Shown one piece after another: positions 6,426 to 42,259 of a stretch of 64,000 bases of DNA (its first letter is position 1; each line of letters begins with the position of its first letter). Source of the DNA: a virus (taxonomy: Duplodnaviria > Heunggongvirae > Uroviricota > Caudoviricetes). The notes beneath the pieces are model-generated. The model worked only from the letters and a program-made list of their open reading frames with translations. It was not told where the DNA came from and ran no database searches. The stretch is from IMG/VR virus record IMGVR_UViG_2925908680_000001. One strand, written 5' to 3'. A program made the position numbers and the translations under genes.

Positions 6426-6426
6426 G

Positions 6427-6981: not shown

Positions 6982-6982
6982 A

Positions 6983-8844
6983 TTAAACGCTCGCTACATT
7001 ATACCAGGTGCCATTTATATACTTTTGAACGGGTCTGTAATAAACACCAGCAATATTATCGGCGGAGTTGGAACCTGTATCCTGAACATTTATACCAGAC
7101 AATACATGACCTGAAGGACACTGGAAATTCCATGTTTGCCAGTTGTTTACACCATAATATTGCTGTGAGCCAAGCCGAACATCCTTTACATATCGGGAAT
7201 CAATGTTACCCCAGTTGCTTGGTTGTATCTGACCGTTTACAGCAAATGTCACCGAGTTATCTGTATTTCGCTGACTATAGAAATGCCAGCCTGAATCATC
7301 ACCAAGCTCTGCAACAGTTGGTCTTGACGAATTTCCCCACAAGTTAAATGATGCATTACGGGCAGCTGTATTTGAGCTTGAAAGTGTGAATAACTTACTT
7401 TCCCCAGTCTGAATACCCTTTAATGATATTGCTGAACCATTTCTAAAGCGGAATACATGCACACCATTAGCATAAGCATCCAGCACCCCATCACCATTTT
7501 GTTTAAACCCGGTATCGTTATCTCCTAAAACTATTGAATTGCCACCCAGGGCATTAGCCGTTCCAATCCCCAGATTTCCGCTAAAAATGGCATTAATACC
7601 GAATATTGAGTGAGAACAATAAAACCCTCGCCCATTGTTAAAATCAAGAATAGCTTGTGCGTTCGTGCTTTCTGTCGCGGGATTAGTTGCTCCCCACTTA
7701 TATGTTGTTTGACCGACGGTATAATCCTGAGTTGGAACAATAACCGTTAGCCCTTCTTCAGCAGAAACCCGCACAGGAAAAGCCCTGCCTTCAACGTAAA
7801 AAACGCTGCATACATCATCTTCTTTAAGGCTTGTTACAATGGAATGGATTGCGCGCTCATTAGTCTGATACGTCGAAAAATAACCTGCCGCATATGAACC
7901 ACGATCAGTCCAGCCACCAGGCATTACCATTCCATTGAATTCGCAGTTATTCATTTCGTAATTACCACCGGCAGATGTGGTCGTTATAATCACTCTGGAA
8001 GCCAGCTCGCCAGTGCTGCCTGTGGAACGCCGGAAAATAACTGGATACCACTTTCCACCAACTGCATTAGACGGCGCATTAAATGCGTACTGCCGCATTC
8101 CTTTTTTCTTATCCACTTCGCCTTTGCTGTAAACATTAATGTTACTCAGGAAGCGATCTTTATCAGGAATATCCGCGCCGTTCTGGTTTTTTTGCAATGA
8201 TCCAGCGGCTAATTCTACGGTTTGCTCAAGATTTAAATCTTCCGCCGTTAGCTCAATGTTTTTAGAACCATCAAACGAGACACCGTTAATAGTGCGCGCC
8301 GTCTGCAATCTGGTCGCCGTAGCAGCATTGCCGGAGGTATCCTGATCCCCTTTGGCATTGACGCCGGGAATTGAATCTTTTGACGTATAGACCTGCGCCC
8401 ATTCAGACCAGTTGGCAGAATCAGTATCCCGCCGCGAACGGATATGTACGGGCGCATGGGCACCGCTCGTGCCACTCCAGCCAATGAATAACTCACCTTC
8501 GCCAGCAGCGGTGGCACCTTTAAGGTGAAGCACATTGCCATAGGGGGAAGGGTAGCCATTGTTGTATGCCTCATACATCTGCAATCCAGTAGCAGCACCT
8601 TGCGTTGTACCGGTAAGCGCAGTAACGCGTCCTCTAGACGTAATTGTTGGTATCGAAATGTTCGTAGAACCATCGAACCTGACGCCATTAATGTTTATGG
8701 CTGTTTTCAATTTCGTCGCGGTGTCGGCATTCCCTGTCAGCGCCCCGGTGATCCCGCCGTTGAAAGTCTGGCGTGCACTCCATGTGTTAGCCGTGCTCAA
8801 CAGGGGGATCTTTTCACCGCTTGTTCCGAGTTCTCTTAAACCAA
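6983..8844 (-). CDS. alternative tail-fibre C-terminal segment (Sv'-like), promoterless in this orientation
   Basis: N-terminal 220 aa identical to residues of the + strand fibre encoded by the inverted repeat; unique 390-aa tip; ends with same INGTWYN motif. Confidence 0.8.
8165..8844. repeat. right ~680-bp inverted repeat of invertible segment
   Basis: Reverse complement of 4329-5008. Confidence 0.9.
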
Positions 8845-9840: not shown

Positions 9841-10286
9841 TGGGTAACTTTGGAAATTATTTCATTTTTATCATGGCATTTGTTGCCATCATTGACCGTT
9901 TCATTTTTCGTCGCAAGAGTGTTGAGATTTTGAGTATTGGTGACGCTGTAGTGAAAGAATCCGCTATAGCATTTCCTGTTTCGCTACGTGTTAAGCGAAG
10001 CTGGGTCAGCAATGCTCAAATCGAATATTGGTTGCAAGACCTGAAAAATCCATCTGTGGTTATTTCAGGGAAAACGCGACCAGTTGACGCCTCAAAACGC
10101 GGTGAGAGAGAAGAGTATTTGCTCATCGATACGAAATATCTTGAGCCAACGAAGTGGGATCTGAAAGTCACATTGACTAACGGTAACTGTCGACTGAATC
10201 CGCTTTATCGCATTTTCCCTATCAATGACTGCATAGAGCGCCAGTTTACGATCGAAAAGCGTGAAGGAGACTGGGATGTCAAATAA
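9840..10286 (+). CDS. membrane-anchored protein (LydB/antiholin-like position)
   Basis: 148 aa, N-terminal TM helix; ATGA overlap with holin gene. Confidence 0.3.
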   Translation: MGNFGNYFIFIMAFVAIIDRFIFRRKSVEILSIGDAVVKESAIAFPVSLRVKRSWVSNAQIEYWLQDLKNPSVVISGKTRPVDASKRGEREEYLLIDTKYLEPTKWDLKVTLTNGNCRLNPLYRIFPINDCIERQFTIEKREGDWDVK

Positions 10287-10896
10287 GAATAATTATGTTC
10301 TTCTTAATTATGATGAGTTAAACGAAAAGGGGCTGGCAAAACTCGTCAAAGAAATCAGCAAAGGTGGTTACAAGATAGCGAGGGTGATCCCTGCAAGTAA
10401 TGGCAGGAAGAAAGATGGGATCATGACGCGCACGTTTACCCTTATTGGTATTGATGAACAGACAATGGAAGTTCAGGTTAACGATACCGGTGATATATCT
10501 GGGATCAAACTGAATGGTAAAACAGTACCATTCAAGCCAGTAAAAACAATGTCGGCTTTGGGGCAATCTCTTGCGGCTTTATTTAATCGCGGAGCAACTT
10601 CTTTCCAGAAGTCATTAGCTCGAAAACTTGCTCGTGCAGCAAAAAATATTGATGACGGAAATAAGAAGCGGCAGGGAGTTAAATCTAACGCTCAGAAATT
10701 AGCTGAAGCGAAAGAATCACGTGATGCACTCCGTGAAGATATCGCTAATGCTAACGACAAACTGTCTAAACTCCAGAGCAAGTCAGACAAAGTAATGCAA
10801 GATACGGGTAACGTTAAAGCTGCCTTGTCTCAGGAAGTAGCTAAGACACGTGCTCTTAAAGAAGAAATCGCGCGCCTGGAGGATGAGCATGATTAA
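10261..10896 (+). CDS. hypothetical coiled-coil protein (Hdf-like position upstream of DarA-like gene)
   Basis: 211 aa, Lys/Ala-rich C-terminus; synteny only. Confidence 0.3.
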   Translation: MKETGMSNKNNYVLLNYDELNEKGLAKLVKEISKGGYKIARVIPASNGRKKDGIMTRTFTLIGIDEQTMEVQVNDTGDISGIKLNGKTVPFKPVKTMSALGQSLAALFNRGATSFQKSLARKLARAAKNIDDGNKKRQGVKSNAQKLAEAKESRDALREDIANANDKLSKLQSKSDKVMQDTGNVKAALSQEVAKTRALKEEIARLEDEHD

Positions 10897-12844
10897 CAAT
10901 CCTTTACGAATTAATATTCAGTCTACTTTTGCTGATACGATCCCCGGCTATATGCCAAGTCGCTGGTCCTCAGAAGAATTAAGCGAAGATGACCTGATTT
11001 TTGAGGCGGCGACCTTAGAAGATATTGAGCTTGCCTATATGGGCAATGAAATTCTGGTTGTGTCTGACGAAGCTATGTTTGAGTCCATAACTACAACCAG
11101 AATTCGGTTAGCTCAAACAATGCGAGCTTTCGTCCGTGCGCTGAATCGTGGCCTGAATGGTACGAATATTATGGCAGGGACTGATGAAGCTGGGACCGAT
11201 GAAAATGGACGTAATTGTATTGGAGGTGCGATTATCGGTCGTGTACGTCGGGTAGCTAATATCCCTGTTTTGACCGCGCAGATACCGCTTACTGACGGGC
11301 AGAGTACAAGCATAATTTTCCACTCTCCAACAGCTGACGGGGCAAAAATAAAGAGTAACGACGAGCTTGTTGCATTTCAGTTTTTACTTAATAAGCGTAA
11401 CGTAACTCACGTTGTCGCCCCGATTGGTGGGAGAGATGTTTCTTTAAGCCAGGTATGCCAGGCGCTATCTAATTTGATTGAGCGTAACAGCGAAAAATTT
11501 AAGAAAGCAAAAGAGCGCCAGGACAAAATGAAGGCAGATATTGAGAGTTATCTCAATGAAGCAGATAAACTGGCAGAAGAACGGTCAATAATGATTGATC
11601 AGGTGGACGTTGCGCAACGTGGGCTGACTGAAAAGCGTGCTGCTCTTACGGAGATGCAAAAAAAACTTGATGCCCAGAAAGCCATCAACGAGGAATTACA
11701 AGAAAAACGCGATAAATTGTTGTCTGCTAAAGGTGAAAAAACGAAGGAACGAGCGTTTAGTGACCAGCTGCGACATGTAAAACATAATCTTGCCATTGAC
11801 GGAAAAACAGTGCTGGATAATGGCGCTGAAGTTAATTATGTCACGTCCGGCAGTGACAATTTCGTTACGATAGTAGCACCTGAAGGTAAATTCAGTATTG
11901 ATGCCAGTGCTGTCAAAGGAGGCAGTTTGGCAGATGCTGCAACCAAATTACTTAAAGCCTACCGAGAGCATAACGCAGATAAATATAAAGTTGATGTGTT
12001 ACCAGGCCAGCAGGAAGACTCCGAACCACCACAGACAGACCCCGAGACGAACCCAGTATCACAACCAGAGAGCCAAGATGTAGGTAAATACCACTATGCA
12101 CTTCAATCTCGCCCGGCTGGTGTTGGTGCTGTGCCGGATGGAAATAAAGCCGTGCTTGATCGTCCTGACCAGGCTGATCAGTATTACGAATATGCTCGTC
12201 ACGGTATCATTACGTATGACCGTAAACTGACAGATGAAGAAGTCAGCCAGTACGAGTTGCTCTATCTTCCTGATGAAGATGAGCTGAAAGATTTTGCAGG
12301 CCAATTGGTTGTGTCCAGCATGTCGAAACATATTGATGGCTATGTAGACCTGTTTGGCAGTGACCTGAAAACATTCAAGGCGCAAGTGAAAATTCTTTTC
12401 CGCAAAGCGTTTCCAAACGTGGCGTATCCACTTAGTGATGGGGAGAACCTTTTCATTATGGACGTGTATAACGCCCTTCAAAATCATTCAAGCGAAGTAA
12501 AAATAGAGCATATGGTTGAGCCAGAATCACAACCACAACCACAACCACAACCACAACCACAACCACAACTACAACCAGCACCAGAACAGGAGCCAGAAGA
12601 AACGGGTGAATCAGCAAGTGAAGCTGATCAGGAGGCAGATAAAGCACTGGAGTACCTGAAATCCGTGCCGGAGCAGTTTACATCCCGCGATCTGACGGTC
12701 ATCAGTGCTGAACTTGATCATGTGCAGGAAGCAGCAAACGCTCTAATCAGTGCAGGTCGATACGACGAGAACGAAGCCACTGTTGGTGAAGCAGTTGACT
12801 ACCTGATCAACATTCTGGCTGAAATTCAGCAGGGAGGTGCTTAA
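10850..12844 (+). CDS. DarA-like internal head/antirestriction protein (putative)
   Basis: 664 aa, coiled-coil centre, (QP)n linker; position after holin genes as in P1 darA operon; not sequence-verified. Confidence 0.35.
   Translation: MLLKKKSRAWRMSMINNPLRINIQSTFADTIPGYMPSRWSSEELSEDDLIFEAATLEDIELAYMGNEILVVSDEAMFESITTTRIRLAQTMRAFVRALNRGLNGTNIMAGTDEAGTDENGRNCIGGAIIGRVRRVANIPVLTAQIPLTDGQSTSIIFHSPTADGAKIKSNDELVAFQFLLNKRNVTHVVAPIGGRDVSLSQVCQALSNLIERNSEKFKKAKERQDKMKADIESYLNEADKLAEERSIMIDQVDVAQRGLTEKRAALTEMQKKLDAQKAINEELQEKRDKLLSAKGEKTKERAFSDQLRHVKHNLAIDGKTVLDNGAEVNYVTSGSDNFVTIVAPEGKFSIDASAVKGGSLADAATKLLKAYREHNADKYKVDVLPGQQEDSEPPQTDPETNPVSQPESQDVGKYHYALQSRPAGVGAVPDGNKAVLDRPDQADQYYEYARHGIITYDRKLTDEEVSQYELLYLPDEDELKDFAGQLVVSSMSKHIDGYVDLFGSDLKTFKAQVKILFRKAFPNVAYPLSDGENLFIMDVYNALQNHSSEVKIEHMVEPESQPQPQPQPQPQPQLQPAPEQEPEETGESASEADQEADKALEYLKSVPEQFTSRDLTVISAELDHVQEAANALISAGRYDENEATVGEAVDYLINILAEIQQGGA
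12527..12589 (+). repeat. hexanucleotide (CAACCA)n microsatellite, about 9 units, in-frame (QP repeat)
   Basis: Read directly; encodes QPQPQPQPQPQPQLQP. Confidence 0.9.
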
Positions 12845-13212
12845 TGACCATCTCTGTTTTAGACCGCCTGAAATTAGGTAAAGAGCTATCAGATCTAATG
12901 CAGGCGCAGAAAACTGCGCCAGTATTGCAACGCGTCACCATTGGTAAGCAGATTGTTGATGTGATGCTGAAATTGGGCCTGGGGACTGCCGCGCAACCGG
13001 CAGCGGAACCGCAACAACAGACTGATCCTGTTGTAGATGAAGTCCCTAAGATAGTGACTGACTTCTTGGGCGGTGTGTTCACAAAGTCCACACAAATGGA
13101 ATTTATTGATGCGCTGCGTGGGATCTCAAACTATGTTGGCGAGTTCCTTACGTTGGAGCAGGCTAAAGAGCAGACCATAAGCTGGGTGAAAGCTAACGGT
13201 TATGCCGGGTAA
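12844..13212 (+). CDS. hypothetical protein
   Basis: 122 aa ORF, ATGA overlap with preceding gene. Confidence 0.35.
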   Translation: MTISVLDRLKLGKELSDLMQAQKTAPVLQRVTIGKQIVDVMLKLGLGTAAQPAAEPQQQTDPVVDEVPKIVTDFLGGVFTKSTQMEFIDALRGISNYVGEFLTLEQAKEQTISWVKANGYAG

Positions 13213-13294: not shown

Positions 13295-14692
13295 TTGGAG
13301 TGTATTTTGAACAAATCAGTTACTTCTGCGCTTTCCGGGGCCACAGATATTAACAGCGTCATTGCTCTGGTTTCTTCATTAGAGAGGAAAGAAACACGCC
13401 TGGGGCGAAGTAGCTACGTAGTCACCAGCAAAGGTGCAGAGGTAAAGACGGCTTTTAAGGTCGTTGATGCCAGCAGTCTGATCATTTCGAACAACCTTGA
13501 CGGTACGATTAACCCGGCCTTCCCGGAAGAACTCCAACCACGAGATCGTACCCGGCTATCCAGCAAACTCCAGGTTAACCGTATTGCCTCCAATTTACGC
13601 CCGGCACAATTAACGGATTCCGGTATGAGCAGCCACGGAGCGCCGATAGTTGGTCCGGACAACGTTGTTGAATCCGGCAACGGAAGGAGTATGGGTATCT
13701 GGCGTGCCTATGAGCAAGGACAGGCGGATGAGTATCGCCAGTACCTGATCGACCATGCGAAAGAGTTTGGTCTGAATCCTGACGAAATTTCGCAAATGTC
13801 TATGCCCGTACTGGTGCGAGAAAGACTCACAGATGTAGACCGCGCTCAATTTGCCCGCGATTCAAACATTAGCGATCTGCAAGAGATGGCAGCAAGTGAA
13901 AAAGCGTATGCGGATGCGCAATTTCTCACTGAGAGCGTCATGGCGCTATTTAATCCTTCAGATGATGGAAATCTGCTGGCGCGGTCCAATGATGCGTTTA
14001 TTCGTGCGTTTTTGCGCGAAATTGGCGATACAGCGACGGCAGGCTTGCTTACTGCCGATGGGCGTCCCACGAAACAGCTTATCGATCGCATCCAGAATGC
14101 AATTTTTGCCAAAGCGTACAAGGATGAAAGGCTTGTTCGGCTGGTGTCGGAAGAGCCAGATCCGGAAATGCGTAATATCCTGACCGCATTAAATACGGCA
14201 GCCAGCGATTTTGCGCAAATGCAGTCGCTGTCTGGCGACGCTCACCATGACGCAGTAACAGGCTTAGTGGACGGTATAGAGCAGGTTAATGGCCTGGATA
14301 CACAGGCGATAGCAGCACTCCAGGAAGCAATTAATCTTGTACGTGAAGCCAAAGACAACGGTCAGGCCGTTGAAGAAGTGATCGCCCAAAGGGGGTTATT
14401 CGGCGATAGTACACCGGAAGCTGAGGCATTGGCGTTATTCATCGTAGCAAATAATCGCAGTGCGAAGCGTATGGGGGCAGCATTCAAAAAAATGGCGCAA
14501 AAAATCAACGACGAGCTGACTCATAAACAACAGGCATTGGGCGATATGTTCGGCGGTGGCGATGTTGATCTGCGTCGTATTTTGTCTGCTGTATCTGATG
14601 AAATTGAGGGTGAATTTGGCAAAGGGAAAGGTCTGAACTTTGCTATGTTTGAAAATTCTACAGGTCTAAATAATTGCAGTATGGAAAACTAA
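13295..14692 (+). CDS. hypothetical late protein
   Basis: 465 aa ORF in late gene block; no motif recognised. Confidence 0.35.
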   Translation: MECILNKSVTSALSGATDINSVIALVSSLERKETRLGRSSYVVTSKGAEVKTAFKVVDASSLIISNNLDGTINPAFPEELQPRDRTRLSSKLQVNRIASNLRPAQLTDSGMSSHGAPIVGPDNVVESGNGRSMGIWRAYEQGQADEYRQYLIDHAKEFGLNPDEISQMSMPVLVRERLTDVDRAQFARDSNISDLQEMAASEKAYADAQFLTESVMALFNPSDDGNLLARSNDAFIRAFLREIGDTATAGLLTADGRPTKQLIDRIQNAIFAKAYKDERLVRLVSEEPDPEMRNILTALNTAASDFAQMQSLSGDAHHDAVTGLVDGIEQVNGLDTQAIAALQEAINLVREAKDNGQAVEEVIAQRGLFGDSTPEAEALALFIVANNRSAKRMGAAFKKMAQKINDELTHKQQALGDMFGGGDVDLRRILSAVSDEIEGEFGKGKGLNFAMFENSTGLNNCSMEN

Positions 14693-20164: not shown

Positions 20165-20189
20165 GCCCCGGCCTGGCCGGGGCTTTTTT
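20165..20189 (+). terminator. rho-independent terminator gccccggc-ctg-gccggggc + TTTTTT
   Basis: 8-bp GC stem plus U-tract. Confidence 0.85.
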
Positions 20190-20674
20190 CATGCCTCATT
20201 AGTTGAGGTTGCTGCGTCTCCGACTGGTAACAGAGCGGTATTGCGTGGTTCGCCAGCAGGCCAGCGATAGCCAGACACTCTTGATGTTGGGAATGCGCGA
20301 ATATTAACCGCATCCCCCTGGTTCCCACCCAGGACAAGCAGATCGCCATTGGCGCGGCGTCCGACAACGAAGCCTACGTGCCCACCGCCTACACGGGTAA
20401 ATACAACGATACATCCGTATGCCGGTGTATCTAATTTCTCGCCCCAATCCAGATAGGATTTTGCCGACTCAAATCTTGTTGAGCGGATGCCTACACGTTC
20501 CAGCATTGCACCGACAAATGCTGCGCACCACGGCGTTTCATCGTCTTTAATTCCGCCGCGCTTGATGTCGCGCCAGAACTGAACGATTTCAGGGTTGTGT
20601 TTAGCGCCTTTTATTTCAGTCAGGCCAATGTGCTTACGGGCTTCAATTAGCCAGCGAGGTTCAATGTTTGCCAT
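20189..20674 (-). CDS. Cys/His peptidase-like protein (NlpC/P60-CHAP/TIGR02594-like)
   Basis: 161 aa; conserved WCAAFV ... GGHVGFVVG pattern. Confidence 0.5.
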   Translation of the reverse strand: MANIEPRWLIEARKHIGLTEIKGAKHNPEIVQFWRDIKRGGIKDDETPWCAAFVGAMLERVGIRSTRFESAKSYLDWGEKLDTPAYGCIVVFTRVGGGHVGFVVGRRANGDLLVLGGNQGDAVNIRAFPTSRVSGYRWPAGEPRNTALLPVGDAATSTNEA

Positions 20675-20825
20675 ATTTTTCTCCCGGTCATGGGTTAATA
20701 AGTAGGCAAACTATGGGGAGTATGTGATTTTGACGGTAGTATCGCCCCCCTGAAAATAACATTCTCCATACCCTCTCAACCGTACCGCATAGCGGAATTT
20801 TTTACGGTTTAGAGGGGGAAATCCT

Positions 20826-23800
20826 TTGGACAAACTACTTCATTCAATCAGTGAAGCCTCCAGCTTAGGCGAACTGATTGAAATTGTTAGTCGGTTGCAT
20901 AAATTACGTGCTGTTGCGACCTTTGGCGTCAGGAAAGCCGATGGCGTCAGTATTCAGAAAACACGCCGGGCAGCAAACAATGCCGCAGTAAATCTTCTTA
21001 ATTCCCTTCCGCCCGGCTTCGATGGGGCGAAATTAACTGACGAACAACGTCAGATTCTTGCTGGGTATACCGGTGAAGGCGGCCTGACAGATGGTGAGGG
21101 CAGCCAATACGAATACTACACGCCACAGTTTATGGCTGAAGGTATATGGGAGCTGTTTGCTGACTACGGTATTGATGGCGGTCACGTACTGGAACCATCA
21201 GCTGGCACGGGTATTTTCCAGGAGACAAAACGGCAGGGAATGATAATGACCAGCGCCGAGCTGTCTCCGATCTCCGGTCGAATCAACCAGCTGTTGCACC
21301 CGGAAGACGATGTGAACATTGGGGCGTTTGAGGCTCTGGCGGCGAAAGACGCAATGTATGACCACGCTGTTGGTAACGTACCGTTTGGCGAAGGCCGTTC
21401 CGGCGTTGCAGGGCTTGATCCGGCATATGCAAACGAGAAGAACGTTGGCAATTACTTTGTGCTGCGCACGATCGACAAGGTTAAACCTGGTGGGCTTATC
21501 GTATTGGTGGTGCCGAATGGCATGACTGATGGTACGAAATACAAAAAATTGCGCGATAAAGTTAGCCGTAAAGCGGAATTTTTGGGCGCGCATCGTATGC
21601 CTTCCGGTACGTTCAGTGAATCAGGTACAGATACCGTGGTGGACGTATGGGTATTGCGTAAACACCCGGAAGCCTTCCTGGAGATGATCCCCGATACGGA
21701 TGATTCGACGCTCAAATCGGCAAACGTCCTTTGGGATACCTTCCTCAAAGGGAAATGGTTTACAACCGAAGGGAAGCGATTTGTTTACGGCGACATGGAA
21801 CGTACCAGCTTCCGCAATACCCTGGTGGTGAAAAAAGACGGTCGTGTATCCAATGAGTCGATGAAAACCGCGCTATCTCGTCGCTTTGATAGTCGCATCA
21901 ATTGGGATTTGCTCGGCGTAACTACTCAGGCATGGCAGGGCGCGAAAGTGGGCGATAAACGCCTTGTAGGCGGTATCTGGCATGAGTTTGATGGTCTGAA
22001 ATGGGTTAAGGACACGACAACCAAATCCTCCGCGCTTGATGTAAGTCGATATGGTGTTTCGACGTTTGGCGATCTGCAGATCGCGTTCCAGTCAACAAAC
22101 GGGATTCTGGCTTTGTCATGGGACCAGATATCGGCGATCGCGTCCGACTATCCATCGGTTGTCAGTGATGAAGTGGCAGCAATGATTCGCTTTGCTGGCA
22201 AGCAGCGAGAAAAAGACAGGGAGCGCGTTATGCGCGGTGCACTGATAGGTCAGTTGATCAACAAGGCACTTGATTTGCGTAACCTGGGGGTGAACGTTGA
22301 TGACAAACTGGCAGATGCATCCCGCTTGGCGGCAGCAGAAGTTGCGAAGTATGGACCACCGCACGCGATTAAGCTGAATGGGCTTGCTGAAGCTGGCGCT
22401 AAAAACTGGATGACGTTCACTGGCAATGTGAAACAGGATGGTTCCACTTCTGACCTTCTGGCAGGGCGACTTGATGTAACGGATGGTGCTGCCGGTATTG
22501 ACTTTACGCGTCCTGAACAAGTGATAGCACATCTTTTTAGTGATGTAGCCCTTAATCCTATAACGCTGGGCGACTTTCGTGAGGCGTTTGCTGGTGAACT
22601 GCCAGAGGACGACGACGCGGTCCTTGAATACCTGGCGAAATTTGATGATATCGCTATTGATGGGTATGGCTGTCTGCTGCCGATGGACCGCGCCACCAGC
22701 GGCGATGTTGCAACCAAAACAGCACTGCTGGTGGGCTGGCGTGATGCGTCAACAGGTGAGCAGAAAGCGAACTTTGAGCGTCAGTTGGCGAAAATCGAAG
22801 AGAAACGCATTTTCACGCCACTAAATAAAGTCACCGTTAATCTGAATGCCCGCTGGCTGGATCGCCGCTTGATAAAAGAGTTCCTGGCAGAGCAGGGCTA
22901 TGACGAGTTTAAGTACACTGAACCTGATCTGAAGGTCGTCGATGGCATTCTGGTATCTCCGGACGATTACGAAGGTAAGGACGGGGTATTTACCGGCTAT
23001 CAGCTACGAACCGTAAACGGCAAAAACGGGAATGAGTTCAAGAAGGCCAACAATAAAGACGGCTTCCTGAACCAGTTAGAAAACTACCTGAACGGTGTTA
23101 AACCGCGTGGGCAGAACGCTAACGAGTACCTGGATAAAATTGCTCAACTGGAAGTTAGCTTTAACGACTGGTTACGCACCCACCCGCAGGCGGATCAGAT
23201 AGCCCGTGACTATAACGACGCATTCAATGGTTTCATTCCGTTCACACATTCTGACGCACCGCTTGGCCTGGAAGGGATTAGTGGAAAGCGCATTCCTCTG
23301 ACTTATCAGAATGAAGAAGTTCGGCGCTTGTCAGAAGATGGGCGTGGCATCATGGGATTTGGTACCGGGCTGGGTAAAACCACGACCGCGCTTGCGCTTG
23401 AGGCGTATAACTTCGAAACAGGTCGCACTAAACGCACGTGTATTGTTGTTCCGAAGGCGGTTTATCAGAACTGGTATCACGAGGCACAGAGTTTCTACAG
23501 TGCTGATGCCTTCGCCAATATGATGTTTATCGGTTTGGATGAAGTTCGTGATGACAGCGGAAATATTCTGACCGCGCCGGTGCTTGATGAAAATGGCGAA
23601 CCACGCCTCGACAGTAACGGGCAGCCTCTTACCAGAAATGTTGTGAAAGAGTCCTCCAGCGCCGTTATCGTTCAGCGTATGAACATGATCCCGTCGTCAA
23701 ATTGGCGAACGGTCATCATGACAAAAGAACAATTCGCGTCTATCCCGCTACGAGAAAAAACCATCGAGGAGAACTCACAGCAAGCTGTCTTTAATGCTGT

Positions 23801-26800
23801 GGAAATGGGGCGTCTTGACCTGGCGTCCGGTAAACACCGTGATGCGCAGAAGAAGAACAAGATTAAGGATCAGGCCGCGAATACCGGTACAACGAAGAAG
23901 CAGAATATCCCGTACTTTGAGGATATGAACTTCGATAGCGTGATTGCCGACGAGGGGCATAACTACCGCAACTCCTTTAATGCCGGGCGTGAAGCGGGAC
24001 AACTGGCATATTTGCCTAACCCGGCAGTATCCAAGATGGCCCGCGACATGGCTGTAAAAGCTGCGTACATGATGAAACGCAACAACGGGCGTGGTGTAGT
24101 CATGCTGACGGCAACTCCGCTGGTGAACAGTCCGATTGATGCCTTCAACATGCTGTCTACTGTCATTCCGCAGGAAGAGTGGATGCGCATGGGCATCATT
24201 ACGCCTGATGATTTCGTTCGTGTGTTTGGCAAAACAGCCACAGTTCAGGTCCAGAAAATTTCCGGGGAAGTGGAAGAGAAGCAGGGGCTGGTGGGCTTCC
24301 AGAACCTTGACGGCCTGCGTGGTATTTTCCATCGTTGGACCACTCTGAAGACTGCTGCAGATGTCGGAGCGACGGTTAAAATTCCCGACATCATCGAGAA
24401 CACCTTGCAGATCCCGATGACAGGGGAGCAGGAGACTGCTTATGAAGAGCTTCGTAAGCGTGCTCAGGAGTTAAGTCGCAATGATGAGCTGACAGTCGAT
24501 GAAAACGGGCATATCACTAACGACAAACCGGATGATTTCATTTTCTCCATCATCCGTGACATGGACAAGGTTGCTATAGACCCGGATCTGTATGCCAGTG
24601 CGATTACATTCCAGTTCCCCGTTGAGCTTGCAGACCAGGTAAAAGCTATTGCTGATGCCTTGCCAAAAGTAGCTGGCGGTAAAGTGGCAGATGATGTTGA
24701 TGAGGCCGAGGAAGACGGCGCTGGCGGGCTGGTCAGTACGCGTACCAGCAAGGTAGTGAAGACCGCTTTTAGTGAACATCCGACGCATGTTGAAATACGT
24801 GCCAGCATTGAACTGGAAGCTGAAATACTGAAGGCCATTGCGGCTGCCGGCATTGATATGCAGCAGGTATCGCACCCCATCCCGCCGAAGTATGCCGCGC
24901 TGATCGAAAATCTTCGTGAAGGTCTGAAGAACGGTAAGCAGATCGTCTTTATTGATGAAAAAGCCCAGCACCAGAAGCTGCGCCGTATTATCGCCAGTGC
25001 ACTGCAAATGCCGGAGCAGGAGATTGGCATTATCAATGCGACGACAGTTAGCCAGGCTGGTGGCATCAAGCTGAAGAAGGTGAATAAGCCGACCGAACCT
25101 ACTCCAAACAAAAACGGTGAATACAAAGAAGGGGCATGGGAAACCTACTACAGCAAACTTGCCCAATATGAGGATTATCTCTCCGCTAAAAATGATGCTG
25201 GCCTTGAGGGCATGGAAGGTATTGCCGCCGACTATAACGAAGGTCGCACGCGCATCATAATCTGTAACAAGAAGGCTGAAGTAGGTATTAACCTGCACAT
25301 CGGGACAACCGATATCCACCACCTGACACTACCCTGGACACCAGCCAGTATCGACCAACGAAATGGGCGCGGTGCGCGCGTAGGTTCACCGCAAGAAAAG
25401 GTCAATGTTCACTACTATTGTGGCAAAGGCACATTCGACGACTTCCGTCTGGATACGCTGAAACGTAAGAAAGACTGGATCAAGATGGTGATGACCTCCG
25501 ACATGTCAGAGATCGCCAATGGTGATGCGGATGATGCTGATGAACGCGCCATTATGCTGGCGGCAAACCCGGAAGAACGCCGCGCAATCATGGCTCGCCA
25601 GGCGCAAGAGCGTGAAGAACGTCTGAAACTGAAAGCACAGCGCGAGGCCAACAATGCTCTCGATATCTACCTGAAAGCGGCAAACGCCGCCGGAAAAGAT
25701 ATCGGCATGATGGAGACAGAACTGAAAAGCGCGATGGAACAGATAGAGTATTACCAGCGAAATCTTGACGACCTGATAAAAGCGGGTACGAACAGGAATG
25801 GGCAAAAATACGCACTTGAGCAGTTGAGTAGCTACAGAAAACGTGCGCGGGTGCTGCGGTTTGCGATCACCAGGGCAAAAGACGCGGATACCATAATGAA
25901 ACGCTCTCGTGGTGATGTGGAGCGCGCTATTAAGTCTGGTGTGCTGGATATCAGTATCGATGTTATTCAGAACCCACAGGAATATATGCGCACTGACAAG
26001 AATATCCTGTTGCATAAAGGTAGTTATTACCGTGCAGTCATTGATGATCGCGAAACAACAGCGATTGTCCGGGTGGAAAAAATTGACGGTGAAAAAGCAC
26101 AATACCTCTGCCGTATCGCCTGGTTGGATAGAGCAAGTCGTTACGCTCGAGCACCGGGGTCAATCGTTACATTGCCGTTTGACTCTGTGATTGAAGCGGT
26201 AACTTTTGAAGAGGGGGTAGCTGAATCGCGCGCAACGGCTGCGCGTGGTGTTCAGTGCCACCAGCTATCAACAATACTTACTCGCGATCAGTTCTATGAT
26301 GCTATTCGCAATGGGGTAATGAATGTTATTGCTGGTAAACCTGGTAATGCATGGGGCGGTGGGTCAGCGATTAAATACTGGGCATATCGCACAGATGATG
26401 GTCAGATCGCGCTGTCATCGGCCTATGATGGCGTGATAGGCCAAAAAATCGGGCGAGCATCGGATATAGCACCTGAGCGATGGATATATCCTGATGGCAA
26501 CGACGAGGCGCTGAAGCGTGAAGTGGCAAAAATACAAGCCAGTGATAACCCGCTGAATATCGTGGACGGCGAGGGATTCCTCCAGGCATTGTATGGGTAT
26601 GATTACATCCAGGGAATGCAGTCATGGGGCGCACAGGCAACGATGGATGATGTTGCCCAGGAGTTCGAAAACTGGATGGCTGGGCGTGGTCTGTCAGGTC
26701 GTTCGCTTAATAAAGTCACTTCTGAAGATATTCTTAGCTTGTTCCGCAAACCGTCCGGAGAAGGTCTGGAATCATTCTGGAGGACCGTGCTGGCATACCG

Positions 26801-27662
26801 TGTATTCCAGGGCAGGATGAAAGCCTTTAGCAATATCGATGATATTGAACGGATGTTTAATCAGGTCAAGATAGCGAAAATTAAGACGAAGATCGAAAAA
26901 ACACGTTCTGCGCTGGTGGCCTGGCGCGATGCATTGTTTGAGCAATATAAATCACTCAGTGATGCAGATGGATGGGCGGCATTGGAACAGCTGGCGAATA
27001 ATGGGGTAGATGGAGCGAAACTAGCCATTGTTCAGGCTGATAACCCCCTGGAATCACCGGCAGCACAGTGGATTAAGGTGGGGGCTGTCATCAATGCATT
27101 TGATGAAAAATACATTAGTAAGGACGATTTTGCTGATGCTGTTTCTGTTAATCGCCTGGTAGAAATGGCTACCCGTCGCGCCCGTGAGTTGAAAGACGGC
27201 GACTATGTGAATGAGTTGCCGGATGCGCTCAAATCGGCAACGTGGCAGGACTATGTATCGCTGAAAAACGGCGGGGCCACTGAATCAGAGATCGCGGAAA
27301 GGCTTGAGCAGGCTGAAAGCAAAAGAGAAGAGCAGGCGGCAGTGGCTGAAGCCAGAGCTGATGAAGCGGCGAATGATGACTATATCATTGTGGTTAATGA
27401 TAAGCCGATTCGCGCTAAGGCGCGTGTTCGCGGGCGCTGGTGGAGCGTCAGCGAGGACGTTGGCGCGGTTTATCTCATTGCCGACCAACCAGGTTCCTCG
27501 ACAATACGGAACGCCAAAGACGCGATTAAGAAGATTGGCGGGCGTTTCTGGAATTTTGAAGCAAACCCGGTTGCTGATGTGAACTTTGACCGTCCTGCAT
27601 GGATGGTATCTACGCGTTACTCGGTAGATGAACTGCGTAAAATAATCGCCGATGCGGCCTAA
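20826..27662 (+). CDS. darB: DarB-like antirestriction protein: N6-adenine methyltransferase + SF2 helicase fusion
   Basis: 2278 aa; SAM motif EPSAGTGIF, catalytic NVPFG, Walker A GFGTGLGKTT, DEGH box, helicase motif VI QRNGRGARVG; strong SD before TTG start. Confidence 0.75.
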   Translation: MDKLLHSISEASSLGELIEIVSRLHKLRAVATFGVRKADGVSIQKTRRAANNAAVNLLNSLPPGFDGAKLTDEQRQILAGYTGEGGLTDGEGSQYEYYTPQFMAEGIWELFADYGIDGGHVLEPSAGTGIFQETKRQGMIMTSAELSPISGRINQLLHPEDDVNIGAFEALAAKDAMYDHAVGNVPFGEGRSGVAGLDPAYANEKNVGNYFVLRTIDKVKPGGLIVLVVPNGMTDGTKYKKLRDKVSRKAEFLGAHRMPSGTFSESGTDTVVDVWVLRKHPEAFLEMIPDTDDSTLKSANVLWDTFLKGKWFTTEGKRFVYGDMERTSFRNTLVVKKDGRVSNESMKTALSRRFDSRINWDLLGVTTQAWQGAKVGDKRLVGGIWHEFDGLKWVKDTTTKSSALDVSRYGVSTFGDLQIAFQSTNGILALSWDQISAIASDYPSVVSDEVAAMIRFAGKQREKDRERVMRGALIGQLINKALDLRNLGVNVDDKLADASRLAAAEVAKYGPPHAIKLNGLAEAGAKNWMTFTGNVKQDGSTSDLLAGRLDVTDGAAGIDFTRPEQVIAHLFSDVALNPITLGDFREAFAGELPEDDDAVLEYLAKFDDIAIDGYGCLLPMDRATSGDVATKTALLVGWRDASTGEQKANFERQLAKIEEKRIFTPLNKVTVNLNARWLDRRLIKEFLAEQGYDEFKYTEPDLKVVDGILVSPDDYEGKDGVFTGYQLRTVNGKNGNEFKKANNKDGFLNQLENYLNGVKPRGQNANEYLDKIAQLEVSFNDWLRTHPQADQIARDYNDAFNGFIPFTHSDAPLGLEGISGKRIPLTYQNEEVRRLSEDGRGIMGFGTGLGKTTTALALEAYNFETGRTKRTCIVVPKAVYQNWYHEAQSFYSADAFANMMFIGLDEVRDDSGNILTAPVLDENGEPRLDSNGQPLTRNVVKESSSAVIVQRMNMIPSSNWRTVIMTKEQFASIPLREKTIEENSQQAVFNAVEMGRLDLASGKHRDAQKKNKIKDQAANTGTTKKQNIPYFEDMNFDSVIADEGHNYRNSFNAGREAGQLAYLPNPAVSKMARDMAVKAAYMMKRNNGRGVVMLTATPLVNSPIDAFNMLSTVIPQEEWMRMGIITPDDFVRVFGKTATVQVQKISGEVEEKQGLVGFQNLDGLRGIFHRWTTLKTAADVGATVKIPDIIENTLQIPMTGEQETAYEELRKRAQELSRNDELTVDENGHITNDKPDDFIFSIIRDMDKVAIDPDLYASAITFQFPVELADQVKAIADALPKVAGGKVADDVDEAEEDGAGGLVSTRTSKVVKTAFSEHPTHVEIRASIELEAEILKAIAAAGIDMQQVSHPIPPKYAALIENLREGLKNGKQIVFIDEKAQHQKLRRIIASALQMPEQEIGIINATTVSQAGGIKLKKVNKPTEPTPNKNGEYKEGAWETYYSKLAQYEDYLSAKNDAGLEGMEGIAADYNEGRTRIIICNKKAEVGINLHIGTTDIHHLTLPWTPASIDQRNGRGARVGSPQEKVNVHYYCGKGTFDDFRLDTLKRKKDWIKMVMTSDMSEIANGDADDADERAIMLAANPEERRAIMARQAQEREERLKLKAQREANNALDIYLKAANAAGKDIGMMETELKSAMEQIEYYQRNLDDLIKAGTNRNGQKYALEQLSSYRKRARVLRFAITRAKDADTIMKRSRGDVERAIKSGVLDISIDVIQNPQEYMRTDKNILLHKGSYYRAVIDDRETTAIVRVEKIDGEKAQYLCRIAWLDRASRYARAPGSIVTLPFDSVIEAVTFEEGVAESRATAARGVQCHQLSTILTRDQFYDAIRNGVMNVIAGKPGNAWGGGSAIKYWAYRTDDGQIALSSAYDGVIGQKIGRASDIAPERWIYPDGNDEALKREVAKIQASDNPLNIVDGEGFLQALYGYDYIQGMQSWGAQATMDDVAQEFENWMAGRGLSGRSLNKVTSEDILSLFRKPSGEGLESFWRTVLAYRVFQGRMKAFSNIDDIERMFNQVKIAKIKTKIEKTRSALVAWRDALFEQYKSLSDADGWAALEQLANNGVDGAKLAIVQADNPLESPAAQWIKVGAVINAFDEKYISKDDFADAVSVNRLVEMATRRARELKDGDYVNELPDALKSATWQDYVSLKNGGATESEIAERLEQAESKREEQAAVAEARADEAANDDYIIVVNDKPIRAKARVRGRWWSVSEDVGAVYLIADQPGSSTIRNAKDAIKKIGGRFWNFEANPVADVNFDRPAWMVSTRYSVDELRKIIADAA

Positions 27663-27698: not shown

Positions 27699-28133
27699 AT
27701 GACGACATTAATTGACACTGTAAAACCGACGGAATCCTACCTTGAGGACATTTTGCCGCAGGCGCTCAATGGCAGGAGTGAAGAGGCGTTTCTGGATGCA
27801 TATCTGAATGGCATGGTGGAAAGGCTGAAACGAGATCCACAGCTTTATCACCTTTATGGGCCGTGGTGGCCTGCGCTTAAAACGTTATTGCTGGAGCGCG
27901 GCGACATATCATTTGGACAAGTTGTAGATAGTGATGTGGCAGAGATCTACAAAATGAGTCGCCCGGCGCTTACGGTTTTGGCTGGGCATCTGTATTCGAG
28001 CGATCGCCTGGGAAATGACGCGGTATACAATCCCGTTCATGCTCTGGAAGTCGCACCTTATGCTGATGATACAGAGCCATACGTGTACATAAGTTACGAC
28101 GAGTCTATAGAGAAATATCGAATCATGGGGTAG
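27699..28133 (+). CDS. hypothetical protein
   Basis: 144 aa ORF immediately after darB. Confidence 0.4.
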   Translation: MTTLIDTVKPTESYLEDILPQALNGRSEEAFLDAYLNGMVERLKRDPQLYHLYGPWWPALKTLLLERGDISFGQVVDSDVAEIYKMSRPALTVLAGHLYSSDRLGNDAVYNPVHALEVAPYADDTEPYVYISYDESIEKYRIMG

Positions 28134-28135: not shown

Positions 28136-28396
28136 ATGCGAAAGAATCGTAGGTTTACGGTCGAAGACCTAAAGGAATATTCCATATCGAAGGGGTATAT
28201 CCTTGAGTTCCACCGATACAAGAAGGTTTTTACGCTGCGAAAAGCAGAAAACCCTGCGAACTGGAGCTGGATATACTTTCCTCACACCGATGATAAGTTG
28301 GTAGAACTTGTTGATGATTTAACCTATGAAGGTTGGTTGATCGCAATCGACAAGACAATCAAAGAATTATCCGAACAGGATAAAATAACCCTTTAA
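28136..28396 (+). CDS. hypothetical protein
   Basis: 86 aa ORF, 3-nt spacing from previous. Confidence 0.4.
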   Translation: MRKNRRFTVEDLKEYSISKGYILEFHRYKKVFTLRKAENPANWSWIYFPHTDDKLVELVDDLTYEGWLIAIDKTIKELSEQDKITL

Positions 28397-28532: not shown

Positions 28533-29027
28533 TTGTTGTTATTATTTCGCATATTTACTATCAATGGGTGTGTTAGAAAAATAGCGCGAAAGAGAAGGCG
28601 TCGCAGTGAATATTCTGAAACATCCCCACATGCCGCAGCTCTTAGAGAACTGGAGAAAAACCCAGATCTAATCAAAAGGAACCATGAGCATTACGAGCAG
28701 GTTCGCGTCCTGGACTGGTTGTATCGCAATATGCGTTATGTGTATGAGCATACTCACGCCACTCCAAACGGTGGCCTGCGAGGCATAAGGACGGCAATAA
28801 AAATGGTGGCAGAGGGCCAAAAGAAGGGATATCCCGATCTTTCTATAGACCTTGCTTGTGGGGGATACCACGGAATGCGCATTGAGATGAAACATGGGAG
28901 AAATCGCCTGACTCCCGAACAACTCGTCTGGATGACCCGCCTCACTGAAGCCGGTTACTACTGCTTTGAGGCGCGCAGTGCCGCTGAAGCCATAAAAGCT
29001 ATCACGGAGTATGTTTGTCTTGATTAA
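28533..29027 (+). CDS. VRR-NUC domain nuclease (start uncertain)
   Basis: C-terminal GYPDLSIDLACGGYHGMRIEMK pattern typical of VRR-NUC; operator-like 9-mer lies inside the annotated 5' end, so true start is probably downstream. Confidence 0.55.
   Translation: MLLLFRIFTINGCVRKIARKRRRRSEYSETSPHAAALRELEKNPDLIKRNHEHYEQVRVLDWLYRNMRYVYEHTHATPNGGLRGIRTAIKMVAEGQKKGYPDLSIDLACGGYHGMRIEMKHGRNRLTPEQLVWMTRLTEAGYYCFEARSAAEAIKAITEYVCLD
28571..28579 (+). promoter_or_regulatory. operator-like TGTTAGAAA
   Basis: Dispersed motif family. Confidence 0.45.
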
Positions 29028-40863: not shown

Positions 40864-40869
40864 ATTAAA

Positions 40870-40878
40870 TTTCTAACA
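40870..40878 (-). promoter_or_regulatory. operator-like TGTTAGAAA (minus orientation) just after dre
   Basis: Dispersed motif family. Confidence 0.5.
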
Positions 40879-40936
40879 CATCTTTTTAGATTAACATCTT
40901 TGCTGTAAAGTACCCTCGCCTATTTAGGAGGGTGCT

Positions 40937-41281
40937 TTGCAGAGTCAAATCACGGAATCAAGACGCTTCAAGGTGGATGGTTACACCGTAACCTTCGCCG
41001 CTGGTGTTAAGAACAGTCATGCTGTCGTTGTGTTCGGCATCATGACCGGGCTTGAGGCCGTCCCTGTGTTTACCCTCGAAAAAAACTGGCGAAATCTGGA
41101 GGAAGCAGAAAGCTACGTCCGGAAAGTAACCATCATTGCCGCCGAAAAACTCCTGGCCCACTATCAGGAAAATTATCGCACTATGGTCGAGAAGATTAAT
41201 CTCGCTTTCACTCGCCCCACTACCGGCTTTATCGCACCAGATACTAATGCAGGTCGATATCCTGCAAGGGGGCGTCGGTGA
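40937..41281 (+). CDS. hypothetical protein
   Basis: 114 aa ORF. Confidence 0.4.
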   Translation: MQSQITESRRFKVDGYTVTFAAGVKNSHAVVVFGIMTGLEAVPVFTLEKNWRNLEEAESYVRKVTIIAAEKLLAHYQENYRTMVEKINLAFTRPTTGFIAPDTNAGRYPARGRR

Positions 41282-42245: not shown

Positions 42246-42259
42246 GCAGAGAAAAGACT

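What the first reader, a model, noticed from the sequence alone, without database searches (positions are those of the whole stretch)
20826..27662. 2278-aa DarB-like methyltransferase-helicase, divergently arranged with a Cys/His peptidase-like gene
The domain order (N6-adenine MTase motifs, then SF2 helicase Walker A, DEGH and motif VI) matches the capsid-packaged antirestriction protein DarB. The C-terminal ~700 aa have no recognisable motifs. A DarA-like gene lies 8 kb upstream, consistent with a complete Dar system.
Basis: partly seen in the sequence, partly recalled or inferred. Interest (0 to 1): 0.45.

Follow-up and report, generated by a model that had tools for sequence, protein, structure and literature searches.

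The report
D6-type DarB antirestriction gene
This 2278-codon gene is the already-annotated DarB homologue of a D6-like (P1-family) plasmid prophage of E. coli, a giant methyltransferase-helicase that in phage P1 is packed into the phage head and protects the injected DNA from host type I restriction; it is real and intact but ordinary.

Summary
The ORF is at exactly 20826-27662 (+), 2278 aa, with a TTG start. The window is a D6-like P1-family phage-plasmid. The gene is 99.0% identical in DNA (2264/2278 aa) to Escherichia phage D6 orf15, which GenBank already annotates as "defense against restriction; similar to P1 darB". It is 43.5% identical to P1 DarB from residue 1 to about 1935 and shares every MTase and SNF2 helicase catalytic motif. 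All six P1 Dar components have homologues here: hdf, darA, ddrA, a half-length ddrB, darB and ulx. The divergent neighbour is a CHAP/TIGR02594 peptidoglycan hydrolase. It is probably the endolysin and not part of Dar. The C-terminal ~700 aa has no Pfam or solved-structure match, but it is a folded module private to the DarB family and under purifying selection. It is also the fastest-evolving part of the protein. The gene is common: 93 of 5,426 complete E. coli genomes and 113 plasmid records carry it near full length. How DarB acts biochemically is still undefined even in P1. Novelty: already known. Interest: low.

The parts
20826..27662 (+). darB-like CDS, 2278 aa, TTG start (D6 orf15 orthologue)
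   Evidence: dN/dS 0.01-0.2 along its whole length
20826..20915 (+). aa 1-30: counterpart of the P1 DarB capsid-targeting sequence (inferred)
   Evidence: Only 8/30 residues are identical to P1. Predicted helices 2-9 and 14-24 and an amphipathic helix pattern are conserved across the family. In P1 the first 30 aa are sufficient for capsid targeting (PMC9024508).
20943..21113 (+). aa ~40-96: LPD36-type N-terminal helical region with GEGG83 (GxG[GAS]) motif
   Evidence: definition in PMC5512222
21114..21725 (+). aa 97-300: gamma-class N6-adenine DNA methyltransferase core (YYTP97, EPSAGTG123, NVPF184)
   Evidence: Pfam N6_Mtase/Eco57I. The AF2 model (pLDDT 82) matches type I HsdM, M.TaqI, M.BseCI, CamA and BsaXI by Foldseek, E 1e-8 to 1e-6.
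21726..23285 (+). aa 301-820: conserved linker region between MTase and helicase; confidently folded, no known family
   Evidence: No Pfam hit at E<=1. 38% identical to P1. Scattered invariant residues across 17 relatives. No clear structural match beyond the MTase core.
23286..25625 (+). aa 821-1600: SWI2/SNF2-type SF2 ATPase (GLGKT848, DEGH1042, TATP1095, insert ~1221-1460, QRNGRGAR1511)
   Evidence: Pfam SNF2-rel_dom 2.9e-12, ResIII, Helicase_C; motifs; 60-63% identical to P1 in the two lobes
25536..25934 (+). aa ~1571-1703: three long helices (coiled-coil / helical bundle)
25983..26201 (+). aa ~1720-1792: small beta-barrel, Tudor/KOW/LSm-like fold (weak resemblance)
   Evidence: AF2 strands. 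Foldseek hits to SMN/PHF1 Tudor and NusG have TM 0.65-0.79 but E only 0.1-1.
26505..27368 (+). aa ~1894-2181: alpha-helical domain preceded by the conserved YPD motif (aa 1888-1890); aa ~1750-2100 is the most variable stretch of the protein between alleles
27381..27659 (+). aa ~2186-2278: compact terminal alpha/beta domain with invariant K2235 and W2259 (family motif G.WW.IP)
20675..20825 (.). 151-bp divergent intergenic region. Block A (20708-20735) stays with the CHAP gene. Block B (20752-20788) stays with darB. Small hairpin CCGC-ATA-GCGG at 20785-20795. SD GAGGGGG at 20812-20818. Weak sigma-70-like site at 20730-20757.
20189..20674 (-). CHAP / TIGR02594 peptidoglycan hydrolase (D6 orf16), probable endolysin; a neighbour, not a Dar component
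   Evidence: Pfam CHAP 2.7e-7; TIGR02594 143 bits against a cut-off of 70.55; phrog_1259 tail-lysozyme C-terminal domain 1e-46. There is no P1 Lyz homologue in the window or annotated in D6.
27699..28133 (+). ulx homologue (144 aa), 36 bp downstream of darB
   Evidence: 46% identical to P1 Ulx, E 4e-44; phrog_1629 'Ulx-like anti-restriction' 1.6e-58
28136..28396 (+). 86-aa ORF (D6 orf13) in the position of P1 lxc but unrelated to it
10261..10896 (+). hdf homologue
   Evidence: DarA_N domain 8e-18; 40% identical to P1 Hdf, E 5e-32
10850..12844 (+). darA homologue
   Evidence: DarA_N + DarA_C; 38% identical to P1 DarA, E 3e-138
12844..13212 (+). ddrA homologue
   Evidence: 33% identical to P1 DdrA, E 2e-23
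13295..14692 (+). short ddrB homologue (465 aa; ParB-like N-terminal half only)
   Evidence: ddrB-ParB domain 2.6e-42; 64% identical to aa 2-445 of the 995-aa P1 DdrB

Best explanation
The gene encodes the D6-lineage orthologue of phage P1 DarB. It belongs to a complete six-gene Dar (defence against restriction) system of a D6-like plasmid prophage.

By homology with P1, the ~250-kDa protein is made late in infection. It is loaded into the procapsid through its N-terminal ~30 residues, after Hdf/DarA (and DdrA, DdrB, Ulx) are in place. It is then ejected with the DNA and protects that same DNA molecule, in cis, from type I restriction of the EcoK/EcoB kind.

What the sequence shows is an LPD36-type N-terminal region, an EcoKI/TaqI-like N6-adenine methyltransferase and a SWI2/SNF2 double-strand-DNA translocase, all with intact catalytic motifs. 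These are followed by a ~700-aa module private to the family.

My preferred mechanism is inferred, with about 0.45 probability. The SNF2 motor tracks along the entering DNA and carries the methyltransferase, which methylates adenines. Type I target sites then look at least hemimethylated ('self') before the host enzyme can cut.

Steps shown here: homology, domain order, motif integrity, purifying selection, and the presence of all partner genes. Steps inferred: packaging, ejection, the restriction systems countered, and the chemistry.
For: - The gene is 99.0% nt / 2264 of 2278 aa identical to D6 orf15, annotated 'similar to P1 gene darB'.
- It is 43.5% identical to P1 DarB over aa 1-1935, starting at residue 1.
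- All seven catalytic motifs are identical to those of P1. They are kept in 11 relatives of 2190-2302 aa drawn from clusters at <=50% identity.
- dN/dS is 0.01-0.04 in the MTase and helicase cores and <=0.2 everywhere else.
- The AF2 model of aa 1-830 matches type I HsdM, TaqI and related gamma-class N6A MTases.
- ulx lies directly downstream, and hdf-darA-ddrA-ddrB lie 8-10 kb upstream.
- Diverged relatives sit in the same P1-like context.
- P1 data: DarB is found in virions by LC-MS/MS, and its N-terminal 30 aa are sufficient to target cargo to the capsid at ~40 copies per virion (PMC9024508). The packaging order depends on Hdf/DarA (PMC12810830). Dar acts only in cis (PMC12707154).
- The translocating-methylase model was proposed for this family in PMC5512222.
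Against: - Nothing has been tested for the D6-type protein itself.
- The N-terminal 30 residues are only 8/30 identical to the P1 targeting signal.
- DdrB, which in P1 aids DarB incorporation, is half-length here.
- No P1-type late promoter was found upstream.
- The mechanism of DarB is 'not defined' even in P1, and plasmid-based assays of darB were confounded by a DNA (Chi + EcoKI site) artefact (PMC11109961).
- Motif IV is NVPF rather than canonical NPP(F/Y). Relatives alternate between the two. From my own knowledge, the Erm/KsgA adenine-N6 methyltransferases are active with N(I/L)PY.
- No target-recognition domain was recognised.
Confidence: 0.88

Rival explanations
1. Same protein and same delivery route, but protection does not come from methylation. 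In this reading the SNF2 motor and bulk protein physically occlude the DNA, or strip or stall translocating type I enzymes. The MTase domain would serve only DNA binding or another role.
For: Protection acts strictly in cis, and reviews favour a physical-shielding hypothesis (PMC12707154). About 40 copies are packaged per virion. No target-recognition domain was recognised in the model. The large family-private C-terminal module could mediate protein-protein contacts. Helicase motifs are as strongly conserved as the MTase motifs.
Against: The SAM-binding motif and catalytic motif IV are invariant or conservatively varied across all diverged family members. The MTase core has the lowest dN/dS in the protein, at 0.01-0.03. 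That is hard to explain if catalysis were dispensable.
Confidence: 0.35
2. The gene is not an anti-defence gene but a prophage-encoded defence enzyme. It would be a DISARM-, BREX- or type ISP-like MTase-helicase that protects the lysogen from other phages.
For: There are weak local hits of the helicase lobes to DrmD, ZorD, DpdE and BrxHII models, and of the MTase to type II MTase models.
Against: Those hits score at most 44.5 bits against curated cut-offs of 500-1100 and cover only 50-200 residues. No nuclease or PLD domain and no partner defence genes are present. The protein shows full-length homology to the virion protein DarB, including its N-terminus. It has conserved linkage to ulx and the portal/head genes.
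Confidence: 0.03
3. The ORF, or at least its C-terminal ~700 aa, is a decaying or non-functional remnant that happens to stay open.
For: There is no recognisable domain after aa ~1600. Ten of the 14 differences from D6 lie after aa 1779.
Against: The ORF is intact with the same start and stop in all seven alleles, which go down to 80% nt identity. dN/dS is 0.10-0.18 in the C-terminal region despite dS near 1. The AF2 model is confident, with pLDDT 84. Conserved islands and invariant residues recur across relatives that keep the same overall length.
Confidence: 0.02

Closest known systems
Escherichia phage D6 orf15 (ASR76325.1 / YP_009914692.1), GenBank MF356679 / NC_050154; described by Gilcrease & Casjens 2018 (cited in PMC6799933; the paper itself is not held)
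   Same: It has the same length, the same TTG start and the same neighbours. 2264 of 2278 residues are identical.
   Different: There are fourteen substitutions, ten of them after aa 1779. The surrounding element lacks D6 orf23/orf24 and has a different tRNA set.
Phage P1 / P7 DarB (YP_006479.1, 2255 aa)
   Same: It has the same domain order and identical catalytic motifs, and is 43.5% identical over aa 1-1935. ulx lies downstream, and the rest of the Dar system is present.
   Different: The last ~680 aa are only 15-29% identical. P1 darB starts with ATG and is divergent from the portal gene, whereas here pro, repL, icd, ant and a CHAP gene lie between. The partner DdrB is half-length. Only about 180 nt of DNA similarity remains.
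MTase-helicase dyad of 'polyvalent proteins' (Iyer et al. 2017, PMC5512222), e.g. the giant DarB-like proteins of Bcep22/PEp14-type podophages (phrog_10089)
   Same: Both have LPD36-type GxG[GAS], the TP motif, an EcoKI/TaqI-like MTase and then a SWI2/SNF2 ATPase.
   Different: Those proteins are 3700-4600 aa and carry further effector domains. The C-terminal module here is found only in ~2200-2300-aa proteins of P1-like elements.
Type I R-M HsdM (EcoKI M) and M.TaqI
   Same: These are the nearest solved folds for the MTase core, at Foldseek E ~1e-8 and phmmer 7eew E 6e-4.
   Different: No HsdS/HsdR partners and no recognised target-recognition domain are present. Sequence identity is 14-21%, and the MTase is fused to an SNF2 motor.
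DISARM DrmD and other defence SNF2 helicases
   Same: They share the SNF2-type helicase C-terminal lobe.
   Different: Scores are far below the family cut-offs. The genomic context and direction of the conflict differ: these are host defence proteins, whereas DarB is phage anti-defence.

Membership tests
P1-type DarB (capsid-delivered MTase-SNF2 antirestriction protein) | Full-length sequence homology to P1 DarB, including the N-terminus | tested here: met
   BLASTP 43.5% over aa 1-1935, E=0. phrog_11801 (P1 DarB type) scores 2032 bits. The C-terminus aligns weakly, and phmmer recovers ~2250-aa relatives at the same position.
P1-type DarB (capsid-delivered MTase-SNF2 antirestriction protein) | Domain order N6A-MTase then SF2/SNF2 helicase, with intact catalytic motifs | tested here: met
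P1-type DarB (capsid-delivered MTase-SNF2 antirestriction protein) | Genomic linkage to ulx and presence of hdf, darA, ddrA and ddrB in a P1-like phage-plasmid | tested here: met
   DdrB is only half-length
P1-type DarB (capsid-delivered MTase-SNF2 antirestriction protein) | Functional N-terminal capsid-targeting sequence (first ~30 aa) | tested here: inconclusive
   8/30 identical to P1. The helix pattern is conserved across the family. Function cannot be shown in silico.
P1-type DarB (capsid-delivered MTase-SNF2 antirestriction protein) | Protein present in virions and ejected with the DNA | not testable with these tools
   Known for P1 only (PMC9024508)
P1-type DarB (capsid-delivered MTase-SNF2 antirestriction protein) | Cis protection against EcoK/EcoB type I restriction | not testable with these tools
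   Known for P1 only
Polyvalent-protein MTase-helicase dyad (Iyer 2017) | LPD36 N-terminal domain with GxG[GAS] motif | tested here: met
   GEGG83 lies in a conserved LTDEQR..LAGYTGEGG block. No Pfam model hit, so this rests on the motif and the alignment only.
Polyvalent-protein MTase-helicase dyad (Iyer 2017) | TP motif plus NPP(Y/F) active site of an EcoKI/TaqI-like MTase | tested here: met
   YYTP97 is present. Motif IV is NVPF184, a family variant that alternates with NPPF/NPPY in relatives. The fold matches HsdM/TaqI.
Polyvalent-protein MTase-helicase dyad (Iyer 2017) | SWI2/SNF2-clade ATPase C-terminal to the MTase | tested here: met
   Pfam SNF2-rel_dom 46.7 bits against a cut-off of 24.9, plus Helicase_C
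DISARM DrmD / other defence SNF2 helicases (ZorD, DpdE, BrxHII) | Score above the curated family cut-off over most of the model | tested here: not met
   NCBIfam DrmD scores 44.5 bits against a cut-off of 610. PADLOC hits are <=38 bits and local.
Type I R-M methyltransferase subunit (HsdM) | HsdM architecture with HsdS/HsdR partner genes | tested here: not met
   Only the catalytic core matches. The Pfam N6_Mtase hit is marginal at 20.7 against 20.4. No hsdS or hsdR lies nearby.
CHAP / TIGR02594 peptidoglycan hydrolases (the divergent neighbour) | Model score above cut-off and a catalytic Cys/His pair | tested here: met
   TIGR02594 scores 143.4 against a cut-off of 70.55; CHAP scores 31.4 against 26; Cys50 in PWCAAF and His99 in GGHVGF

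The most novel reading that the evidence does not exclude
The family-private C-terminal module consists of a coiled-coil, a Tudor-like barrel, a helical domain and a terminal alpha/beta domain. Its residues ~1600-2100 evolve several times faster than the enzymatic cores and appear to be exchanged between alleles by recombination. This module could be a specificity determinant that decides which host defence systems (type I families, BREX) the protein neutralises. If so, D6-type and P1-type DarB would have different anti-defence spectra. Paired with the half-length DdrB, the D6 Dar system would then be a functionally distinct variant rather than a copy of P1's.
Probability: 0.2. Interest if true: 0.45.

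Novelty: already known. Interest (0 to 1): 0.1.

Why it matters
It matters little as a discovery. The gene, its DarB assignment and the accompanying Dar genes were already annotated in phage D6, and the same gene sits on about a hundred sequenced E. coli, Salmonella and Shigella plasmids.

There are three residual values.
- RefSeq calls it only 'SNF2-related protein' and PHROGs lists its family (phrog_1685) as 'unknown function'. The DarB assignment could therefore be propagated.
- DarB's mode of action is still undefined even in P1. The D6 type is a 44%-identical natural variant that marks which residues and modules are indispensable.
- The N-terminal capsid-targeting principle shown for P1 may extend to D6-like particles as protein-delivery vehicles.

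Tried and rejected
- I looked for a P1-type late promoter (AAGTGAYTW-N4-TANNNT, derived from the P1 LPlyz/LPpro/LPmat annotations). None lies upstream of the gene, and window-wide matches are at chance level. Only a weak sigma-70-like site was found.
- I tested whether the conserved upstream block B is a repeated regulatory motif. It is unique in the window.
- The word-indexed protein search with the C-terminal 718 aa returned only near-identical fragments. The exhaustive HMMER search was needed.
- Pfam on isolated segments at E<=1 found nothing for aa 1-120, 301-820, 1201-1460 or 1561-2278.
- The PDB sequence search gave only marginal HsdM and INO80 hits.
- The D6 genome paper (Gilcrease & Casjens 2018) and Piya et al. 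2017 are not held in the library. Their content is cited only through the GenBank notes and through papers that cite them.
- I considered and rejected the defence-system reading and the pseudogene reading.

Full report
**Observation.** The ORF exists exactly as described: 20826..27662 on the + strand, 2278 codons from a TTG. A stop-free run of that length has a chance probability of about 3e-48. The TTG is the first possible start after an in-frame stop 12 codons upstream. It is preceded by GAGGGGG at a 7-nt spacing and is used by all seven D6-like alleles examined. It also aligns with residue 1 of P1 DarB. Pfam reports N6_Mtase (marginal), Eco57I, SNF2-rel_dom, ResIII and Helicase_C. The divergent neighbour (20189..20674, minus strand, 151-bp gap) is a CHAP-domain protein. 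A DarA homologue ends 7981 bp upstream.

**What the window is.** The gene is 99.0% identical in DNA to Escherichia phage D6, whereas P1 and P7 darB share only a ~180-nt island of DNA similarity. The window is collinear with D6 from 8156 to 39666, except that it lacks D6 orf23/orf24. The D6 record annotates the same 6837-nt CDS as orf15, 'defense against restriction; similar to P1 gene darB'. RefSeq calls it a 'DEAD/DEAH box helicase family protein'. The proteins differ at 14 of 2278 positions. The closest record is a 91-kb E. coli plasmid at 99.4%. In all, 113 plasmid records and 93 of 5,426 complete E. coli genomes carry the gene at >=80% coverage, nearly always on ~90-kb non-mobilizable plasmids. 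D6-like plasmid prophages are a described group (PMC6799933).

**Relationship to P1 DarB.** BLASTP gives 43.5% identity over residues 1-1935.
- Identity to P1 is 57% in the MTase core and 60-63% in the two helicase lobes.
- It is 38-40% in the linker (301-820) and the helicase insert (1221-1460), and 15-29% after residue 1600.
- Every catalytic motif is identical in the two proteins.
- Eleven further full-length relatives (2190-2302 aa), taken from clusters at <=50% identity, keep all of the motifs. Motif IV alternates between NVPF and canonical NPPF/NPPY. NVPF is therefore a family variant and not a sign of decay. From my own knowledge, the Erm/KsgA adenine-N6 methyltransferases work with N(I/L)PY.
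- The family features defined by Iyer et al. 2017 are all present: the LPD36-type GxG[GAS] motif, the TP motif, an EcoKI/TaqI-like MTase and a SWI2/SNF2 ATPase.

**The Dar system.** All six P1 Dar components have homologues:

| Component | Window coordinates | Identity to P1 |
|---|---|---|
| Hdf | 10261-10896 | 40% |
| DarA | 10850-12844 | 38% |
| DdrA | 12844-13212 | 33% |
| DdrB | 13295-14692 | 64% |
| DarB | 20826-27662 | 43.5% |
| Ulx | 27699-28133 | 46% |

DdrB covers only the ParB-like N-terminal 445 residues of P1's 995-aa protein.

The gene order differs from P1. In P1, and in two diverged relatives, darB is divergent from the portal/protease pair. In D6-like elements the portal, pro, repL, icd, ant, a small ORF and the CHAP gene precede darB. 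The order CHAP-darB-ulx-orf13 is conserved down to 80% nt identity. The 86-aa ORF after ulx sits where P1 has lxc but is unrelated to it.

**The neighbour.** The 161-aa protein scores 143 bits on TIGR02594 (cut-off 70.55) and matches CHAP. It has the Cys (PWCAAF) and His (GGHVGF) pair and no N-terminal signal. It resembles the C-terminal lytic domain of tail-hub proteins in PHROGs. No homologue of the P1 endolysin Lyz exists in the window, and none is annotated in D6 positions 1-83,000. I therefore infer that this gene is the endolysin working with the LydA/LydB holin pair, and that it is not functionally linked to Dar.

**The C-terminal ~700 aa.**
- No Pfam hit appears even at E<=1.
- An exhaustive HMMER search of 1.84 billion representative proteins found only 32 matches. 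Every long one is a 2190-2302-aa protein matching at the same C-terminal position. The module is therefore private to this family.
- With a 13-sequence alignment, AlphaFold2 gives a confident model (mean pLDDT 84.2, pTM 0.44). It contains three long helices (~1571-1703), a small beta-barrel (~1720-1792), a helix/strand unit, a large helical domain (~1894-2181) and a compact terminal alpha/beta domain (~2186-2278).
- Foldseek returns nothing at E<=0.001. The only consistent weak matches are Tudor/KOW/LSm barrels (TM 0.65-0.79, E 0.1-1) for the small barrel.
- Conserved islands include IKR.R..VE.AIK.G.LD, YPD..D..LK and a terminal G.WW.IP-type motif, with invariant N2003, K2235 and W2259.

**Evolution.**
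- Among D6-like alleles the enzymatic cores are 98-100% identical, while residues 1601-2100 drop to 65-85% and residues 1-120 to 83-90%.
- dN/dS is 0.01-0.04 in the cores and 0.10-0.18 in 1601-2100. Selection there is relaxed but clearly purifying.
- dS is very uneven between segments within single allele pairs. This suggests recombination between alleles; that is an inference.

**N-terminal module structure.** The AF2 model of aa 1-830 (pLDDT 82.4) matches type I HsdM (including EcoKI M), M.TaqI, M.BseCI, CamA and BsaXI at E 1e-8 to 1e-6. The match covers only the ~200-300-residue catalytic core. No target-recognition domain was recognised in residues 300-830, but failure to find a match does not prove that one is absent.

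**How it most likely works.** In P1, DarB is a virion head protein of ~40 copies. Its first 30 residues are sufficient to target a reporter to the capsid (PMC9024508). Hdf and DarA must be incorporated first (PMC12810830). The system protects only the DNA it was packaged with, against type I systems and BREX (PMC12707154). darB is non-essential for growth (PMC10695390).

The biochemical mechanism is explicitly 'not defined', and plasmid-borne darB assays were confounded by a Chi/EcoKI-site DNA effect (PMC11109961). Iyer et al. proposed a translocating methylase. Both catalytic centres are under the strongest constraint in the protein. I therefore favour translocation-coupled adenine methylation of the entering DNA, at about 0.45. 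It is established that EcoKI treats hemimethylated sites as self, so methylating one strand would be enough. The motor-only occlusion or displacement model is next, at about 0.35. Packaging, ejection, the target spectrum and the chemistry are all inferred for the D6 type.

**Rivals rejected.** A defence-enzyme reading fails. Hits to DrmD, ZorD, DpdE and BrxHII are <=44.5 bits against cut-offs of 500 and above, and they are local. A pseudogene reading fails on intactness, dN/dS and the confident fold.

**Transcription signals.** No P1-type late-promoter box lies upstream. A weak sigma-70-like site sits at 20730-20757. Footprinting across alleles separates block A, which stays with the CHAP gene, from block B (20752-20788), which always stays 40-85 nt upstream of the TTG. 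Block B is followed by a CCGC/GCGG hairpin whose loop varies, and block B is unique in the window. Its role is unknown.

**Verdict.** The feature is a known gene of a known phage lineage, so interest is low. The only open biology is the undefined mechanism of DarB and the role of its fast-evolving private C-terminal module.

Noticed in passing
window 32097-33583: The tRNA cluster here is Arg-TCT, Tyr-GTA, Thr-TGT, Ser-TGA and Met-CAT. Phage D6 has Asn-GTT, Thr-TGT, Ser-TGA and Met-CAT at the same place, so Arg and Tyr replace Asn in this element.
   Followed up: partly
window 14652/14704 junction: The window lacks about 1.1 kb that in D6 holds orf24 (DUF4145) and orf23, between ddrB and the portal gene.
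   Followed up: partly
window 13295-14692: DdrB is 465 aa and corresponds only to the ParB-like N-terminal 445 residues of the 995-aa P1 DdrB (64% identity). The C-terminal half, annotated in P1 as a possible metallopeptidase, is absent.
   Followed up: partly
window 20189-20674 (-): This stand-alone CHAP/TIGR02594 hydrolase is the only endolysin candidate. No P1 Lyz homologue is found in the window or annotated in D6, which suggests the lysis enzyme was swapped relative to P1.
   Followed up: partly
window 20752-20807: A conserved block lies upstream of darB, with a CCGC-loop-GCGG hairpin. The stem is invariant while the loop varies in sequence and length among alleles. It is unique in the window and its role is unknown.
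   Followed up: partly
L007 1410-1754 (E. coli plasmid p92_MLI108-1): One D6-like allele carries an extra 114-aa ORF inserted between the CHAP gene and darB. The Shigella allele has a ~60-nt insertion at the same point.
   Followed up: no
window 28136-28396: An 86-aa ORF (D6 orf13, phrog_6844, unknown function) occupies the position of P1 lxc after ulx but has no similarity to Lxc.
   Followed up: partly
window 20826-27662 and the whole window: There are seven Chi sites (GCTGGTGG) in the gene, 5 on the + strand and 2 on the - strand. The window as a whole has 25 on + and 14 on -. P1 darB has 11, as reported in PMC11109961.
   Followed up: no
window 28533-29027: The pmgM homologue ('putative morphogenetic function' in D6) is annotated as a VRR-NUC domain protein in RefSeq plasmids.
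   Followed up: no
window 39666-52272: About 12.6 kb has no megablast match to D6 positions 1-83,000. Part of it may correspond to D6 83-91 kb, which I did not fetch. I listed the ORFs but did not examine the content.
   Followed up: no
window 1-8200: The tail-fibre / Cin invertible-segment region is rearranged and more divergent (81-91%) relative to D6.
   Followed up: no
PHROGs phrog_1685; RefSeq WP_089477117.1 and relatives: Public annotation is inconsistent. The D6-type family is 'unknown function' in PHROGs and 'SNF2-related protein' in RefSeq, although GenBank D6 calls it a darB homologue.
   Followed up: yes
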